Notes: generated by a model from the sequence alone, not told the origin. A stretch of DNA of 64,000 nt from Escherichia phage outra (MN850645.1); one strand, 5' to 3'; counted from the stretch's first letter, positions 33,827 to 38,571 are shown. Translations and numbers: made by a program.

Positions 33827-35233
33827 ATGGCAACTTTTCGTGATAAGGTAGTTTCCGTAACCCTTACCTACGGTGCTACTTCAATTAGTGAAACACAGTT
33901 TGATATCCCTCTAATTCTTACAGGGCATAACGTTACTGGCAATCTTGTAGATTATTTCACTTCTTCAGACGCACTTCTGCAAGCAGGTTTTGGCACTGCC
34001 GATCCAGCTTATAAAATGGCAAAACTACTATTTGACGGTCTGTTCGCACCAGAACAAGTTATCGTCGGTAAGCGTGATGTTTCTAAAACAACTCTAACTC
34101 CAGTAGTTGAAGATAGTGCAACTTACGTTATCACTATTAAAGCAAATTCAAAAAGCAAGGACTTCAAGTTTGTTGCCGATGATACTGCAACTGCTCAAGA
34201 GATTGTTGTTGGTTTAACAGAAATGATCAACGCAGACGTAGTGTATAAAGAATTTTTCACTGTGTCAAACGATGGTAGTGTTATCACTGTAACCCCAGTT
34301 GCAGGTAAATACGCTACTATGGATAGTTCAGGATTCACAACTAACGTAGAATATGCAAATGATATCTTAGAAGATATTGCTAAAATTGCAGACTATGAAA
34401 ACAGTTGGTTCTGGTTACTATCTGATTCTCACGCAGAACAAGATATTATCGATCTAGCAGGTTATGTAGAAGAGCACGATAAAGTGTATTTCTTCTCTAC
34501 CTCACAACCAGGTGTTCTAACTAAAGAAGAAGATAACATTCTAGAACGCTTAGGTGATATGGGCTACAATAACACTTGTATGGCATTGTGGATGACTAAC
34601 GCTGACACAGTGTTCCCAGAGGCTGCTGTAGTTGGTTCTATCTGCTCTGCAACACCAGGTACTACTACCCTGCATGGTAAAACCCTTGTTGGTATCGAGA
34701 TTGAAAAACTTGGTCAGACAGCAGAAAACTTTATCGTTCAACAGAATGGTAATATTTACCGTAAAGAACACGGTGTTCTGTTCTACCGTGATGGCTTCAT
34801 GGTTAGTGGTTTCTATGTTGACTATGTGGTACACGCTCTGTGGTTCAAAGCTCGCGTAGAAGAATCTCTGTTCGCTCTATTCAAACAGCAATCTATGCTT
34901 GGTAGTGGTGTTAGAGCAACTTCTGCTGGTCTTGCTTTGATTCGTCAAGCTGTTACTGCAAACCCAATCCAAGTAGGTATTAACAATGGTTCTATTGCCA
35001 ATGAGGTAGTAACTTCAGAGGAAACAGGACTTCTGGTAAGCCTTAAACCTACTATCTATATCCCATCTCGTGCAGATATGACTGATGCTCAAATCAATGC
35101 ACGTTTGGTTGATGGTATGGTTATTGAATACGTATATGCTGGATTCTTCCACTATGTTAAAGTGCAGGTAAACGTTCTGACGAACCGCACTGCAAATAGC
35201 CAGAATTCCAATAGCTCTACTGTATCTTCATAA
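33827..35233 (+). CDS. tail sheath protein (putative)
   Basis: 468 aa followed by a 159-aa tube-sized gene, chaperone pair and tape measure: canonical contractile-tail gene order; biased codon usage. Confidence 0.55.
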   Translation: MATFRDKVVSVTLTYGATSISETQFDIPLILTGHNVTGNLVDYFTSSDALLQAGFGTADPAYKMAKLLFDGLFAPEQVIVGKRDVSKTTLTPVVEDSATYVITIKANSKSKDFKFVADDTATAQEIVVGLTEMINADVVYKEFFTVSNDGSVITVTPVAGKYATMDSSGFTTNVEYANDILEDIAKIADYENSWFWLLSDSHAEQDIIDLAGYVEEHDKVYFFSTSQPGVLTKEEDNILERLGDMGYNNTCMALWMTNADTVFPEAAVVGSICSATPGTTTLHGKTLVGIEIEKLGQTAENFIVQQNGNIYRKEHGVLFYRDGFMVSGFYVDYVVHALWFKARVEESLFALFKQQSMLGSGVRATSAGLALIRQAVTANPIQVGINNGSIANEVVTSEETGLLVSLKPTIYIPSRADMTDAQINARLVDGMVIEYVYAGFFHYVKVQVNVLTNRTANSQNSNSSTVSS

Positions 35234-35291: not shown

Positions 35292-35771
35292 TTGGATAAA
35301 ATGCTTACTGGCGTAATGGCCTATGATCCTTCTCAAGTAATCCTGTCTTTGGGTGGTTGGGAACCTTGGGGTTTCGCCGCAGATACCAAAATTGTTATTA
35401 ACAAAACTAACGATATCATCAACCCATATTCAGGTACTGATGGTGACGTTTCCTTGGCTCTTAGTCGTAACCGTTTAGGTACGCTAACAATGTCACTGCA
35501 ACGTACTTCCCCAGCAAACGAAGTTCTTGCTGCTTATGCACAAACGATGTATTCTACTCGTCAAGTAGCATTTAGCGTATATCTAGAAGACCCTCGCGGA
35601 TATTATATCAGCACAATTGGTTGGATTCAAAGCCAACCGGACGACACTATTGGTGAAACTATTCAAGAAAACCAATGGGTAATTGGTCTTAAAGATGCAA
35701 GCCTACTTCGTTCTACTGTAGGTGTTGGTGTTAACGCACTTAACTCTATTAGTGCTCTAACTATTCAGTAA
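35292..35771 (+). CDS. tail tube protein (putative)
   Basis: 159 aa directly after sheath-sized gene; followed by terminator. Confidence 0.5.
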   Translation: MDKMLTGVMAYDPSQVILSLGGWEPWGFAADTKIVINKTNDIINPYSGTDGDVSLALSRNRLGTLTMSLQRTSPANEVLAAYAQTMYSTRQVAFSVYLEDPRGYYISTIGWIQSQPDDTIGETIQENQWVIGLKDASLLRSTVGVGVNALNSISALTIQ

Positions 35772-35774
35772 TAA

Positions 35775-35800
35775 AAAGGGCAGAAATGCCCTTTATTTTT
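35775..35800 (+). terminator. rho-independent terminator
   Basis: AAGGGCA-GAAA-TGCCCTT then TATTTTT. Confidence 0.55.
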
Positions 35801-35814
35801 AAAGAGAGGAAATA

Positions 35815-36297
35815 ATGGAACAACAAAAAGATAATACTATTGCAAAATTTGCTCGTCCAGAAGTAATGGTTGAAATTGATCTGGATGAAGGACGCAGTGT
35901 AAAATTTAGAGTTCTCAAGTGGAGTCCAACTAAAGTTTTTGAAAGGATTCCAGAACTAGGTAGTGTACTAGCTGTTCCTATGACAATGTATAATACTGCT
36001 CTTATGTCAGCAGATGAAGATCTAGAAGCTCGTATTGCTATGGCGCTGATCCAGTTATTCAGTGGTCTGGAAGAAAAAAACTTAGCCGCATTCTTACGTA
36101 AAATTTTAGATGAAGTTTACACAGAAGCAGGTCATAGTGTTTCCGATAATTTTGATGAATTGTTTTTTGCTCACCCAGAATTAGTTGTTGATTTAGCTGC
36201 AAAAGTTCTTGAGGTGAACTATGCCCCTTTTTTCAAACGAGGTTTCGGAAAACTGTTGACCCAATTTCAAGGAATAGAGACTCTAGCGAAGAGTTAA
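35815..36297 (+). CDS. tail assembly chaperone (gpG-like, putative)
   Basis: 160 aa immediately upstream of tape measure; slippery-like TTTTTTC near 3' end; -1 frame stays open into next ORF. Confidence 0.45.
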   Translation: MEQQKDNTIAKFARPEVMVEIDLDEGRSVKFRVLKWSPTKVFERIPELGSVLAVPMTMYNTALMSADEDLEARIAMALIQLFSGLEEKNLAAFLRKILDEVYTEAGHSVSDNFDELFFAHPELVVDLAAKVLEVNYAPFFKRGFGKLLTQFQGIETLAKS

Positions 36298-36344
36298 GTC
36301 CGGCAATTAAATCAGCAATTGAAATTGCCTCACAAACCCTTAGC

Positions 36345-36572
36345 TTGACATGGTATGAAGTAATTCTTTGTAAGGTAGTTAAGAATACCTCCGAAACCTT
36401 GTCCTCGTTAGATAATTACGGTGTAGATTATCTACTTAAAATTTATGAATATTTAACATTTGAAGACTATGTACAAGATCTTCACGTTAAAGATGCGGAT
36501 ATTAAACGTGGTCAACAGAGAACAATAAGAGAACTGGATACGGCTATGAAAAAATTAATTCCAGATTCATAA
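36345..36572 (+). CDS. probable frameshift extension of tail assembly chaperone (gpGT-like)
   Basis: Starts at TTG with no RBS; frame is -1 relative to upstream chaperone and open back into it. Confidence 0.4.
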   Translation: MTWYEVILCKVVKNTSETLSSLDNYGVDYLLKIYEYLTFEDYVQDLHVKDADIKRGQQRTIRELDTAMKKLIPDS

Positions 36573-36591
36573 GTAATACGGAGGATTACCC

Positions 36592-38571
36592 TTGTTAGAA
36601 ATTAACACTTCCAAGATTAAGAATACAGTAACGTTTACTGTAGATAAAGACAGTTTAAAAAATACTAAAGACGCAATTAAAAACCTTAAAACTTTTACAG
36701 AATCTATTGAACCATCTTTAAATATGACTAAAATGCGTCGTCAGTTTAAAAGTATGGAAGAGTATGCTAAAAGAATAAGGCAGCAAATGTCAGGTCTTGG
36801 CGGCGGTAATCCTCCACCAATCCCACCAACCGGAGGTTCAAGTGGTGGTGGAAAAGGAGGAAGTGGCAGAGGTGGTTCTGGATCTTCTGGAGGACGTAAG
36901 ACACCGGAGGAAAGAGCCGCAGAAGCCGCCGCTAAACGTGCAGCACTTGCTAATATGAAGCAAGACGATTTTAGTTTTAAAGCTATGCCTTTTACAAAAG
37001 CAGACAGTAGAATTCTAGAAAAATCTAAAAAGATTGTAGAAGAAACTGTTGAACTTTATCGTAAAGGCGTGATTACTAGCCAACAAATGAACAATACTTT
37101 GGCTAGACAGTTAGAAGAACTACGCAGATCTCATAGAGAGAAGAATGCACAACTTCTTGATGAAGAGAGAGCTAGACGTAGAATTGCCCGTCTGCAAGAA
37201 GCAGAAGATAAAAGAAGACAGCGTGTTCGAGAAAGAGAAAGAAAGGAGTTCGAACGTCAGCAAAGGAGGGAAAAAGAAGCAAGACAGCGAGATAGACAAC
37301 GTAAGTTATCTGGTGTAGGTAATGCTGCTATTGCTCTTAACCCTGCTATGTTTGGTGCTGCTCTTTTAGGTGCTGGTTTATATCAAGGCATAAGCAAAAT
37401 AGCTGAAAGCATCACAACTGCGGCAGAACGTATTAATATGGTTAGTAAAGGTGGTCAGAACGTACAGGTAAACCCTAATGCAATTTTAACAATGCGTACT
37501 TGGGGTGAGATGAACGGTGTAGACTCTGCCAGCATTATTAAAGCCATTGACAATATTAAAGACGTTCGTGAACGTTTAGGTAATACTGTACTCCACTCTG
37601 AATTTGATGAAAAATCAGGTAAATGGAAAGGTGGAGATAGTGGTATTAATGAAATCATGAACCAATTTGGTTGGTCGAAAGAAGATGTTGCTAAATTCCA
37701 GAACAGACCTTTAGACTTTGTTCAAGCACTTGTTAATGAAGGTCAAAAAAGAGGAATGAACTCCGCGCAAATTGGTCGTTTGATGGAAAACCTTGGTGAT
37801 GACTTAATGCACTACCAACGTATGTTTTTGGATAACGGTAAAGAGTACATGAAAGTCTTGGATATGTTAAAAAATTCAGGAGCCACTCTTAACGATGAAA
37901 ACATCAAAGCAGCACAAGATTTTGTTAAGCTAAGAGCACAAATTAGTGCAGCAGGAGAAGGTTTTACCAATAACTTACTTATAGGATTTATGGATGGTTT
38001 AAAATCTGCACCAGATTTTGCAGAGAATATGAAAACTTTCCAAGAAGCTGCTCGTGGTCTTGGTGAAATGTCTGGTAGTATTGTAAGTAGCCTTGCAAAA
38101 ATTGCGAAATATTTCCTTGATTTTTCAAATAAGGTTGGGCCAAAAAACAATACTAAAGAAGCTGTAAGAGATTATTATAATGGTACGCAGTATGGGTACG
38201 ATGCACAGGTTGGTGGTAATCCTTGGGCTTATTGGCCTATTGGAAGAGATCAACATCTGCCTGAAAATCAACCTTTAGGTAACTTTGATAGTAGTTTCTT
38301 AACTAGTGCCTTAAATCCAAGTGCTTCTAGTATTGGTTACAATAGACCTGATTTAACAGCATCTATGCTAACACCACGCCAAGGTGTTCCAGTACCGTTA
38401 AGTGTAGAGAATACGGTTGTTATCCCAGACAACGCATTCCAGATTAATGTTATTCCAGATGGCTATGGTTTTAGTAATTATCTAGATGCGACAATGAATA
38501 CCAGTTTTAGTAACTTCTCACAAGGTTTAACTCTTCAGTTAAGCAGTGGACAATCTTCTACTGGTGGTTAA
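36592..38571 (+). CDS. tail tape measure protein
   Basis: 659 aa after chaperone pair; Gly-rich low-complexity and RE/RQ-rich charged helical segments; followed by terminator. Confidence 0.6.
   Translation: MLEINTSKIKNTVTFTVDKDSLKNTKDAIKNLKTFTESIEPSLNMTKMRRQFKSMEEYAKRIRQQMSGLGGGNPPPIPPTGGSSGGGKGGSGRGGSGSSGGRKTPEERAAEAAAKRAALANMKQDDFSFKAMPFTKADSRILEKSKKIVEETVELYRKGVITSQQMNNTLARQLEELRRSHREKNAQLLDEERARRRIARLQEAEDKRRQRVRERERKEFERQQRREKEARQRDRQRKLSGVGNAAIALNPAMFGAALLGAGLYQGISKIAESITTAAERINMVSKGGQNVQVNPNAILTMRTWGEMNGVDSASIIKAIDNIKDVRERLGNTVLHSEFDEKSGKWKGGDSGINEIMNQFGWSKEDVAKFQNRPLDFVQALVNEGQKRGMNSAQIGRLMENLGDDLMHYQRMFLDNGKEYMKVLDMLKNSGATLNDENIKAAQDFVKLRAQISAAGEGFTNNLLIGFMDGLKSAPDFAENMKTFQEAARGLGEMSGSIVSSLAKIAKYFLDFSNKVGPKNNTKEAVRDYYNGTQYGYDAQVGGNPWAYWPIGRDQHLPENQPLGNFDSSFLTSALNPSASSIGYNRPDLTASMLTPRQGVPVPLSVENTVVIPDNAFQINVIPDGYGFSNYLDATMNTSFSNFSQGLTLQLSSGQSSTGG

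What the first reader, a model, noticed from the sequence alone, without database searches (positions are those of the whole stretch)
36228..36572. Candidate -1 programmed frameshift in the tail assembly chaperone
The first chaperone ORF contains T_TTT_TTC (codons Pro-Phe-Phe, about 36228-36234) some 20 codons before its stop. The -1 frame is open from this point through the next ORF (36345-36572), which lacks an ATG and RBS. This matches the conserved G/GT-type frameshift found upstream of tape measure genes in tailed phages.
Basis: partly seen in the sequence, partly recalled or inferred. Interest (0 to 1): 0.5.

Follow-up and report, generated by a model that had tools for sequence, protein, structure and literature searches.

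The report
Unannotated tail-chaperone −1 frameshift, phi92-like phage
A phi92-like E. coli phage almost certainly makes a second, longer tail assembly chaperone when ribosomes slip back one base on a run of T's; this is the classic phage trick, ordinary in kind but not annotated in any record of this phage group that I inspected.

Summary
The window is a phi92-like myophage, 99% identical to phi92. The order is tail tube gene, chaperone gene (35815-36297, Pfam Phage_TAC_15), a 'gp133' ORF, then the tape measure gene. T_TTT_TTC lies in codon phase at 36228-36234, 20 codons before the chaperone stop. The −1 frame is open from 36213 to 36572. A second in-phase heptamer, C_CCT_TTT (36225-36231), overlaps it.

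Comparative evidence makes a programmed −1 frameshift very likely:
- All 16 GenBank relatives read from the two subfamilies, and 44 of 46 IMG/VR loci, keep the −1 overlap and T_TTT_TTC in phase. Some share only 26-38% chaperone identity.
- Synonymous variation is zero at the heptamer and just after it, and near saturation elsewhere.
- The conserved C-terminal domain begins upstream of any usable start codon.
- The start-less stretch 36298-36344 evolves as −1-frame coding sequence.

The product would be a 252-aa, 28.8-kDa fusion. I found no downstream stimulatory RNA structure. An upstream SD-like GAGGTG is only partly conserved.

No record I inspected joins the two ORFs. A 2025 paper proposes the same kind of frameshift in sister families. 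Verdict: a new member of a known kind; confidence 0.87, interest 0.3.

The parts
35292..35771 (+). Tail tube gene (phi92 gp131 homologue), upstream neighbour of the chaperone
   Evidence: Pfam KPP10_Orf10 and phrog_280; gp131 is the tube protein in the phi92 cryo-EM structure (PMC13450770)
35775..35794 (+). Terminator-like hairpin followed by a T tract, between the tube and chaperone genes; a possible attenuator that lowers chaperone and tape measure expression
   Evidence: function inferred
35815..36297 (+). Short chaperone ORF (TAC-N, phi92 gp132 homologue), 160 aa, 18.1 kDa, the product of standard decoding
   Evidence: Pfam PF21822 Phage_TAC_15 E 1.6e-22; phrog_3840 E 4e-54; mass
36211..36216 (+). 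SD-like GAGGTG about 12 nt upstream of the heptamer; possible upstream stimulator. A comparable element (anti-SD duplex −6.9 kcal/mol or better) is present in 15 of 25 representatives and weaker or absent in the rest
   Evidence: anti-SD duplex −6.9 kcal/mol in the window. The spacing falls within the 6-17 nt range searched for stimulatory SD-like sequences in E. coli (PMC4066793). Role inferred
36225..36231 (+). Overlapping in-phase heptamer C_CCT_TTT; an alternative or additional slip site that gives the same product
   Evidence: It is the only canonical heptamer at the corresponding position in the one IMG/VR relative that shows no other heptamer (L046); L051 has it plus an A_AAA_AAC further downstream
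36228..36234 (+). Slippery heptamer T_TTT_TTC in X_XXY_YYZ phase (codons Pro-Phe-Phe); the proposed −1 shift site
   Evidence: In phase in 16 of 16 GenBank relatives read from the two subfamilies and 44 of 46 IMG/VR loci. Zero synonymous variation among 28 representatives. The H_HH.U_UU.Y class is among the most efficient heptamers in E. coli (PMC4066793)
36241..36246 (+). Invariant GGT TTC (Gly-Phe in the 0 frame, Arg-Phe-Arg in the −1 frame); a dual-coding footprint just after the slip site
   Evidence: Its distance from the heptamer varies (6 or 9 nt), which argues for a protein-level rather than an RNA-level constraint
36234..36572 (+). −1-frame extension: 112 codons plus TAA. It comprises a disordered linker and a small helical C-terminal ('T-like') domain. 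Joined to residues 1-140 of ORF1 it gives the 252-aa, 28.8-kDa long chaperone (TAC-NC)
   Evidence: AlphaFold2 model with pLDDT 77
36345..36572 (+). 'gp133' as annotated in phi92 and relatives (TTG start, no RBS); in reality the 3' part of the frameshift product
   Evidence: The conserved sequence and a predicted helix begin upstream of this TTG
36592..38571 (+). Tape measure protein gene (phi92 gp134 homologue), with a TTG start after a GGAGG RBS
   Evidence: PMC13450770

Best explanation

Most ribosomes read 35815-36297 normally and make the 160-aa chaperone. A minority slip back one nucleotide, with tRNA-Pro/tRNA-Phe or tRNA-Phe/tRNA-Phe over C_CCU_UUU_UUC (36225-36234). They then continue in the −1 frame to 36572 and make a 252-aa protein. 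That protein carries the chaperone domain, a flexible linker and a small helical C-terminal domain, which is the ORF annotated as 'gp133'.

By analogy with lambda gpG/gpGT, both proteins would coat the tape measure protein (gp134). The rare C-terminal domain would recruit the tail tube protein (gp131). Neither protein would remain in the virion.

Shown here: the sequence architecture, its conservation, and selection on the −1 frame starting at the slip site. Inferred: that the slip is ribosomal, how efficient it is, and what the two domains bind.

The signal appears to be the heptamer alone, possibly helped by an SD-like GAGGTG about 12 nt upstream. There is no downstream structure.
For: 1. 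Context. The order sheath, tube, chaperone, −1 ORF, tape measure is seen. ORF1 matches Pfam Phage_TAC_15 and phrog_3840.

2. Conservation of architecture. The downstream ORF lies in the −1 frame with an 85-160 nt overlap in all 17 sequences compared, the window included. T_TTT_TTC is in phase in all 16 relatives read from Stephanstirmvirinae and Vequintavirinae and in 44 of 46 IMG/VR loci. The other two have C_CCT_TTT. A Vibrio phage has A_AAT_TTT.

3. Synonymous sites. Among 28 representatives below 90% nucleotide identity, the conserved-residue columns in the slip region (36229, 36232, 36241, 36244) have zero synonymous entropy (TTT in 27 of 27, TTC in 25 of 25, GGT in 27 of 27, TTC in 24 of 24). 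The 18 conserved columns upstream range from 0.22 to 2.25 bits.

4. Protein conservation in the −1 frame. It starts right after the slip (the RFR motif) and includes a conserved segment, xxAIxxAxxxxxSLxW, upstream of the annotated start.

5. No conserved start codon. In 10 of the 20 representatives that could be scored there is no ATG/GTG/TTG between the slip site and the conserved Trp. Where one exists, it is not positionally conserved and has no SD.

6. Coding signature. The start-less stretch 36298-36344 varies mostly at −1-frame third positions (18/12/35), like the annotated gp133 part (83/52/146).

7. No single-frame version. None of the 16 relatives of the C-terminal part found among 1.84 billion representative proteins exceeds 138 aa.

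8. Heptamer efficiency. H_HH.U_UU.Y heptamers are among the most efficient −1 shifters in E. coli, and U_UU.U_UU.C and C_CC.U_UU.U shift above 0.1% without a stimulator (PMC4066793).

9. Virion content. gp132 and gp133 are not among the proteins modelled in the phi92 virion (PMC13450770).

10. Sister families. The same kind of frameshift, on a GTTTTT motif, has been proposed for Vandenendeviridae and Andersonviridae (PMC12846349).
Against: There is no direct evidence here or in the searched literature: no fusion peptide, reporter assay or ribosome profiling for any phi92- or rV5-like phage.

No stimulatory structure lies downstream. The 100-nt fold has z = −1.5, and the 60-nt folds in 25 representatives have z between −1.6 and +1.9. 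Rfam gives no match at gathering score. Efficiency could therefore be low.

The SD-like element is weaker or missing in about 10 of 25 representatives.

Heptamers in phase are common by chance in this AT-rich genome.

The IMG/VR loci were partly found through a peptide pattern that contains the Phe-Phe motif. That biases the sample towards the amino acids, though not towards the codons.
Confidence: 0.87

Rival explanations
1. Transcriptional slippage. RNA polymerase inserts one extra U on the T6 run (36228-36233) in a fraction of transcripts. Standard translation of those mRNAs then gives the same 252-aa fusion, and no ribosome slips.
For: The site is a homopolymeric T run, and the product would be identical (sequence). 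Runs of A or U are known slippage sites, and U7 and A7 are avoided in E. coli genes (PMC4066793; PMC5009743). A title cited (Vladimirov et al. [quoted passage not shown] I could not read that paper.
Against: The run is only 6 T. As I recall, bacterial RNA polymerase slips appreciably only on runs of about 8-9 or more; I did not test this. Relatives keep a heptamer in the ribosomal X_XXY_YYZ phase even where the T run is shorter: C_CCT_TTT with 4 T in L046, and A_AAT_TTT in the Vibrio phage. That fits tRNA re-pairing, not polymerase slippage. The run never lengthens to T7 or more in any of the roughly 60 sequences.
Confidence: 0.06
2. Two separate genes, as annotated. 'gp133' (75 aa) is translated on its own from the TTG at 36345, possibly by reinitiation after termination at 36297, and the heptamer is incidental.
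For: Every GenBank record I inspected annotates it this way or leaves the ORF out. A TTG start exists, and gene callers find 64-84-aa ORFs.
Against: There is no SD before 36345. The conserved domain and a predicted helix start about 15 residues upstream of the TTG. In 10 of the 20 representatives that could be scored there is no start codon at all before the conserved Trp, and the start positions that do exist are not conserved. The start-less region shows a coding substitution pattern. Heptamer codons are invariant at synonymous sites. The −1 relationship and the overlap are kept in every relative examined.
Confidence: 0.05
3. Chance arrangement or decaying remnant. The −1 ORF is not expressed in any functional way.
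For: In-phase heptamers are frequent by chance (73 in the window).
Against: The −1 ORF stays open and conserved at the protein level across subfamilies whose chaperones share only 26-38% identity. It shows third-position-dominated variation.
Confidence: 0.02

Closest known systems
Phage lambda gpG/gpGT tail assembly chaperones, and the conserved frameshift of long-tailed dsDNA phages (Levin, Hendrix & Casjens 1993; Xu, Hendrix & Duda 2004, 2013, 2014; summarised in PMC5009743)
   Same: The gene pair lies between the major tail or tube gene and the tape measure gene. [quoted passage not shown] The second ORF has no start of its own. Neither product is expected in virions. No downstream RNA stimulator is evident here; as I recall, lambda needs none either.
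   Different: There is no detectable sequence homology to lambda G or T: the chaperone matches Pfam Phage_TAC_15, and the C-terminal domain has no Pfam or fold match. The heptamer is U_UUU_UUC (with an overlapping C_CCU_UUU) rather than lambda's G_GGA_AAG (from memory). The host phage is a contractile-tailed myovirus. Nothing has been verified experimentally.
Proposed −1 frameshift on a conserved GTTTTT motif in the short-chaperone genes of Vandenendeviridae (Pakpunavirus, phage Adele) and Andersonviridae (Mooglevirus); PMC12846349 (2025), PMC4319497
   Same: The phage lineages are related: that paper links them structurally to Vequintavirinae. [quoted passage not shown] The downstream region is likewise routinely mis-annotated as a hypothetical protein or as intergenic. 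The argument is likewise the unbroken −1 frame across divergent genomes. The Vequintavirinae relatives examined here carry TGT TTT TTC, which contains GTTTTT.
   Different: That paper reports the motif for Vandenendeviridae and Andersonviridae; the passages I read do not report it for Stephanstirmvirinae or Vequintavirinae. In the window the base before the run is C (CCT TTT TTC), which creates a second overlapping heptamer.
Phage P2 gpE/gpE+E' (the myovirus example of the same frameshift; from memory, not checked here)
   Same: A contractile-tailed phage, a −1 shift on a T-rich heptamer (T_TTT_TTG as I recall), and a gene pair just upstream of the tape measure gene.
   Different: No sequence similarity was detected in my searches. 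The genome size and lineage differ.
E. coli dnaX −1 frameshift (upstream SD-like element plus heptamer plus hairpin)
   Same: An SD-like sequence about 10-12 nt upstream of the heptamer could act as a stimulator here, as it does in dnaX.
   Different: There is no downstream hairpin here. The SD-like element is only partly conserved. The frameshift product here is longer, not shorter, than the 0-frame product.

Membership tests
G/GT-type tail assembly chaperone frameshift (functional class, Xu et al. 2004) | The gene pair is located between the major tail (tube) gene and the tape measure gene | tested here: met
   Tube 35292-35771, chaperone 35815-36297, −1 ORF to 36572, tape measure 36592-38571. 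The identities of gp131 and gp134 are confirmed by the phi92 cryo-EM paper
G/GT-type tail assembly chaperone frameshift (functional class, Xu et al. 2004) | The first ORF is a tail assembly chaperone | tested here: met
   Pfam PF21822 Phage_TAC_15, 80.8 bits against a cut-off of 22; phrog_3840, E 4.4e-54
G/GT-type tail assembly chaperone frameshift (functional class, Xu et al. 2004) | The second ORF overlaps the 3' end of the first in a shifted frame and lacks its own initiation signals | tested here: met
   The −1 frame is open 36213-36572, an 85-nt overlap. The first start codon is the TTG at 36345, without an SD. In 10 of 20 scorable representatives there is no start codon before the conserved Trp
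G/GT-type tail assembly chaperone frameshift (functional class, Xu et al. 2004) | A slippery sequence lies in the correct phase inside the overlap and is conserved among relatives | tested here: met
   T_TTT_TTC at 36228-34. It is in phase in 16 of 16 GenBank relatives and 44 of 46 IMG/VR loci, with zero synonymous variation
G/GT-type tail assembly chaperone frameshift (functional class, Xu et al. 2004) | Two proteins, short and fused, are made at a fixed low ratio | not testable with these tools
   This needs proteomics, a western blot or a reporter assay. No such data for phi92- or rV5-like phages turned up in the literature searches
G/GT-type tail assembly chaperone frameshift (functional class, Xu et al. 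2004) | The products are absent from mature virions | tested here: inconclusive
   The phi92 cryo-EM atlas models gp130, gp131 and gp134-139 but not gp132 or gp133. Virion mass-spectrometry tables for relatives list tube and tape measure proteins but not the genes between them. Absence from these lists is not a dedicated test
G/GT-type tail assembly chaperone frameshift (functional class, Xu et al. 2004) | The N-terminal domain binds the tape measure protein and the C-terminal (T) domain binds the tail tube protein | not testable with these tools
   Inferred by analogy only. The C-terminal model is a small helical domain with no fold relatives outside its own family
Lambda gpG / gpT sequence families | Detectable sequence or fold homology to lambda G and T | tested here: not met
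   The only Pfam match is Phage_TAC_15. The C-terminal part has no Pfam family, no PDB sequence hit and no PDB or BFVD fold hit beyond close relatives. It works like G/GT but is not a member of the lambda sequence families
GTTTTT-motif chaperone frameshift of Vandenendeviridae and Andersonviridae (PMC12846349) | [quoted passage not shown] | tested here: inconclusive
   The uninterrupted −1 frame is met. The T run is met. The literal G is present in the Vequintavirinae relatives (TGTTTTTTC) but replaced by C in the window and in other Stephanstirmvirinae (CCTTTTTTC). Direct homology between these chaperones and those of Adele or Moogle was not tested

The most novel reading that the evidence does not exclude
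The frameshift signal may be unusual in mechanism. It would be a stimulator-less, tandem 'double heptamer' (C_CCU_UUU_UUC) giving ribosomes two consecutive chances to slip. Its efficiency would be tuned by an upstream SD-like GAGGUG and perhaps by the invariant CGGUUUCG just downstream, acting at the RNA or nascent-peptide level rather than only through dual coding. Alternatively, part of the fusion could arise by RNA polymerase slippage on the T6 run. Either case would make this widespread coliphage group a clean model for structure-independent −1 frameshifting in E. coli.
Probability: 0.1. Interest if true: 0.45.

Novelty: new member of a known kind. Interest (0 to 1): 0.3.

Why it matters
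It corrects the annotation of a core morphogenesis gene in a large, much-used group of phages: phi92-like and rV5-like coliphages and their Klebsiella, Salmonella, Cronobacter, Erwinia and Pectobacterium relatives. A tblastn search matched 368 GenBank records, and many of these phages are therapy or biocontrol candidates.

'gp133' and its homologues (phrog_16039, phrog_10409) are listed as proteins of unknown function or are not called at all. They should instead be joined to the chaperone gene as the long frameshift product.

The finding extends the conserved tail-chaperone frameshift to two more subfamilies of large myoviruses. It also supplies a heptamer-only signal that is invariant in every subfamily sequence examined and easy to test in E. 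coli. It does not change what is understood about frameshifting or tail assembly.

Tried and rejected
- **Downstream stimulatory structure.** Folding 36235-36334 gave z = −1.54, with 17 of 200 shuffles folding as well. Folding 36200-36300 gave z = +0.39. The 60-nt downstream segments of 25 representatives gave z from −1.6 to +1.9 and no shared fold. A small hairpin at about 36279-36295 lies roughly 45 nt from the site, which is too far. Rejected.
- **Rfam scan of 35700-36700.** Only sub-threshold hits on the opposite strand (SraG 36 bits against 50; CRISPR-DR35 25 against 35). Chance.
- **A_AAA_AAC at 36075-81 as the shift site.** The −1 frame closes after 6 codons (sequence). Rejected.
- **+1 frame.** Closed after 7 codons. 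Rejected.
- **Fold and sequence search on the C-terminal part.** The AlphaFold2 model (pLDDT 77) matched only its own family in BFVD and nothing in the PDB. No PDB sequence relatives for either part. Uninformative about function.
- **Search for a natural single-frame fusion.** None was found among the 19 and 16 homologues, all of which are 138 aa or shorter.
- **Vladimirov et al. 2022 on T4-like chaperones.** The paper is not held.
- **Logan contig L065 with T5 instead of T6.** It looked like a possible slippage variant. However, the contig is short, the chaperone ORF called on it is only 122 aa, and losing one T would not give the −1 frame. I treated it as an assembly or sequencing error.
- **Genome-wide heptamer control.** The one longer −1 read-through (53664) lies in a spurious ORF inside an 804-aa gene.

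Full report
**What the window is.** Region 35292-38571 is 99.1-99.5% identical to Escherichia phage phi92 and other members of Justusliebigvirus (Stephanstirmvirinae). The local gene order is:
- tail sheath, 33827-35233
- tail tube, 35292-35771 (phi92 gp131)
- a 160-aa ORF, 35815-36297 (gp132)
- a 75-aa ORF, 36345-36572 (gp133)
- tape measure protein, 36592-38571 (gp134)

A 2026 cryo-EM study of phi92 confirms gp130 as sheath, gp131 as tube and gp134 as tape measure. It does not find gp132 or gp133 in the virion (PMC13450770). ORF1 matches Pfam PF21822 (Phage_TAC_15; 80.8 bits against a cut-off of 22) and phrog_3840 'tail assembly chaperone' (E 4e-54). The downstream ORF matches only families of unknown function, phrog_16039 and phrog_10409.

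**Checking the observation.**
- ORF1 codons read CCT(36226-28) TTT(36229-31) TTC(36232-34). T_TTT_TTC is therefore in X_XXY_YYZ phase at 36228-36234, 20 sense codons before the TAA at 36295-97.
- The −1 frame is open from 36213 to the TAA at 36570-72. The overlap with ORF1 is 85 nt.
- The +1 frame closes after 7 codons.
- The first ATG/GTG/TTG in the −1 ORF is the TTG at 36345, and no Shine-Dalgarno pairing precedes it.
- The fusion would be 252 aa and 28.8 kDa, against 160 aa and 18.1 kDa for the 0-frame product.

- The preceding codon pair GCC CCT creates a second in-phase heptamer, C_CCT_TTT (36225-31). A slip there gives the same protein.
- An in-phase A_AAA_AAC at 36075-81 is a dead end.

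As a single-sequence observation this is not rare. The window holds 73 in-phase X_XXY_YYZ heptamers (Y = A or T) in ORFs of at least 100 aa, with a median −1 read-through of 6 codons. Only a few read through for more than 50 codons, and the longest of those lies in a spurious ORF inside a real 804-aa gene. The case therefore rests on context and conservation.

**Conservation of the architecture.** A tblastn search with the hypothetical fusion matched 368 phage records. The match came as two pieces, one per frame, in nearly all of the 60 rows listed. I read 17 sequences in detail: the window, phi92, 14 further members of Stephanstirmvirinae and Vequintavirinae, and one Vibrio phage.
- In all 17, the downstream ORF is in the −1 frame and overlaps the chaperone gene by 85-160 nt.
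- All 16 sequences from the two subfamilies carry T_TTT_TTC in the same phase. Their chaperones share 26-38% identity with the window's across subfamilies.
- The Vibrio phage PWH3a-P1 has A_AAT_TTT instead.

A scan of IMG/VR added 46 loci. Of these, 44 have T_TTT_TTC in phase. L046 has only C_CCT_TTT, and L051 has C_CCT_TTT plus an A_AAA_AAC further downstream. One of the two peptide patterns used for that scan contains the Phe-Phe motif. This biases the sample towards the amino acids, but not towards the codons or the base before them.

**Selection signatures.**
- *Synonymous sites.* Among 28 representatives below 90% nucleotide identity, 18 columns with a conserved amino acid upstream of the site show near-saturated synonymous variation. 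For example, Phe at 35905 is TTT 13 / TTC 14, and Phe at 36163 is 10 / 18. The entropies range from 0.22 to 2.25 bits. The four conserved columns at and just after the site are invariant: TTT in 27 of 27, TTC in 25 of 25, GGT in 27 of 27, TTC in 24 of 24.
- *Dual coding.* The invariant GGT TTC is Gly-Phe in the 0 frame and Arg-Phe-Arg in the −1 frame. Its distance from the heptamer differs by one codon between subfamilies. I therefore read it as a dual-coding footprint rather than an RNA element.
- *Protein conservation in the −1 frame.* The fusion alignment shows conservation right after the slip (FF-x-x-RFR). A variable Gly/Ser/Thr/Pro-rich linker follows, then a conserved domain that begins with xxAIxxAxxxxxSLxW(Y/F). 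In the window this segment (SPAIKSAIEIASQTLSLTWY) starts about 15 residues upstream of the annotated TTG.
- *No conserved start.* Of the 25 representatives, 20 could be scored against the conserved Trp. In 10 of those 20 there is no ATG/GTG/TTG anywhere between the slip site and the Trp. Elsewhere the candidates are not positionally conserved and lack an SD.
- *Coding pattern in the start-less stretch.* Among 11 Stephanstirmvirinae sequences, the stretch between the ORF1 stop and the annotated start (36298-36344) varies mainly at −1-frame third positions (18/12/35). The annotated gp133 part does the same (83/52/146).
- *No single-frame fusion.* Among 1.84 billion representative proteins, the 16 relatives of the C-terminal part are all 55-138 aa. 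No natural single-frame fusion exists.

Together these results show that the −1 frame is translated from the T run onward, and that frameshifting is the only conserved way into it.

**Mechanism.** Systematic measurements in E. coli place H_HH.U_UU.Y heptamers among the most efficient −1 shifters. U_UU.U_UU.C, C_CC.U_UU.U and C_CC.U_UU.C all belong to this class. U_UU.U_UU.C and C_CC.U_UU.U exceed 0.1% even without a stimulator. The stated rule is that the A-site tRNA must stay cognate after re-pairing, which tRNA-Phe does on UUC to UUU (PMC4066793).

I found no downstream stimulator. Folds of the region are no more stable than shuffles. No common structure appears in 25 representatives. Rfam gives nothing at gathering score.

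An SD-like GAGGTG sits about 12 nt upstream (36211-16; −6.9 kcal/mol against the anti-SD). That is within the 6-17 nt range used for stimulatory SD-like elements (PMC4066793). It encodes Glu-Val, and in about 10 of 25 representatives it is weaker or absent, so I rate it a possible modulator only.

The likely outcome is low-level, heptamer-driven slippage, as in lambda G-T. In lambda the G:GT ratio is about 30:1 and is critical for tail assembly (PMC5009743). The roles I assign to the two domains are inferred by analogy: the chaperone domain on the tape measure protein, and the C-terminal domain recruiting the tube protein. The C-terminal model (pLDDT 77) has a disordered linker at residues 1-18 and helices at 23-36, 40-51, 56-59 and 64-108. 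It has no fold relatives outside its own family.

**Rivals.**
- *Transcriptional slippage on the T6 run.* It would give the same protein and cannot be excluded from sequence alone. But the run is short, it never lengthens in about 60 sequences, and relatives with only four T keep a heptamer in ribosomal phase.
- *Independent initiation at 36345*, which is what current annotation implies. The missing SD, the missing start codons in relatives, and conservation upstream of the TTG all contradict it.
- *A non-functional remnant.* The protein-level conservation excludes it.

**Comparison with what is known.** The phenomenon is the classic conserved frameshift of tail assembly chaperone genes in long-tailed phages (Xu, Hendrix & Duda 2004, as cited in PMC5009743).

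None of the GenBank or RefSeq records I inspected joins the two ORFs. These include phi92, rV5 derivatives, BASEL phages and Pharokka-annotated genomes. Several omit the second ORF altogether.

Full-text searches found no paper reporting the frameshift for phi92-like or rV5-like phages.

A December 2025 paper proposes a −1 frameshift on an invariant GTTTTT motif in the chaperone genes of Vandenendeviridae and Andersonviridae, and relates those lineages to Vequintavirinae (PMC12846349). The Moogle genome note had already annotated one (PMC4319497). The Vequintavirinae relatives examined here carry TGT TTT TTC, which contains that motif. The window has CCT TTT TTC.

This is therefore a new member of a known kind, probably the same ancestral site. 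It is not a member of the lambda G or T sequence families, since no homology was detected.

**Verdict.** Confidence is 0.87 that a programmed −1 ribosomal frameshift at 36225-36234 yields a 252-aa long chaperone. The value is in annotation and as a clean test system rather than conceptual: interest 0.3.

Noticed in passing
window 35775-35794 (+): A terminator-like hairpin (AAAGGGCAGAAATGCCCTTT) followed by ATTTTT sits between the tail tube stop (35771) and the chaperone start (35815). It may attenuate transcription so that the chaperone and tape measure are made in lower amounts than sheath and tube. The record for phage Paula annotates terminators in this region.
   Followed up: partly
window 36225-36234: Two overlapping in-phase heptamers, C_CCT_TTT and T_TTT_TTC, form a 10-nt slippery block in Stephanstirmvirinae. 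Vequintavirinae relatives (TGT TTT TTC) have only the second. IMG/VR locus L046 has only the first, and L051 has the first plus a downstream A_AAA_AAC.
   Followed up: yes
window 36592-36594 and 36581-36585: The tape measure gene starts with TTG after a strong GGAGG RBS. Stephanstirmvirinae relatives also use TTG, whereas Vequintavirinae relatives use ATG.
   Followed up: partly
window ~36800-36900 (tape measure residues ~68-101): There is a Gly/Ser/Pro-rich low-complexity stretch near the tape measure N-terminus (GGGNPPPIPPTGGSSGGGKGGSGRGGSGSSGG). The phi92 cryo-EM paper could not resolve the tape measure N-terminus.
   Followed up: no
window ~34778-34870 (phi92 NC_023693 66790-66882): The phi92 RefSeq record annotates a 'hypothetical tRNA' inside the tail sheath gene. 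ARAGORN finds no tRNA there in the window, so this is probably a spurious annotation.
   Followed up: yes
GenBank MG0656xx records: About 20 records named 'Campylobacter phage', with host Campylobacter jejuni, are 99% identical to phi92-like or rV5-like E. coli phages. The host labels look doubtful.
   Followed up: no
L065 603-620 (Logan SRR14312191 contig, 975 bp): This contig, related to the chaperone locus, has T5 instead of T6 at the slip site. A gene caller therefore produced a 107-aa 'MALFQTRFRK...' protein. The chaperone ORF called on the contig is only 122 aa, so this is most likely a homopolymer sequencing or assembly error.
   Followed up: partly
window 35772-35897 (−): A sub-threshold Rfam hit to SraG sRNA (36.3 bits against a gathering score of 50) lies on the opposite strand and overlaps the terminator hairpin. 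It is probably driven by the hairpin, or by chance.
   Followed up: no
P0024 and P0028: In some distant relatives the codon before TGT ends in A. This creates an ATG in the −1 frame directly abutting the T run (ATG TTT TTT CAA...), and gene callers use it as the start of the second ORF. Whether it ever serves as an initiation site is unknown.
   Followed up: no
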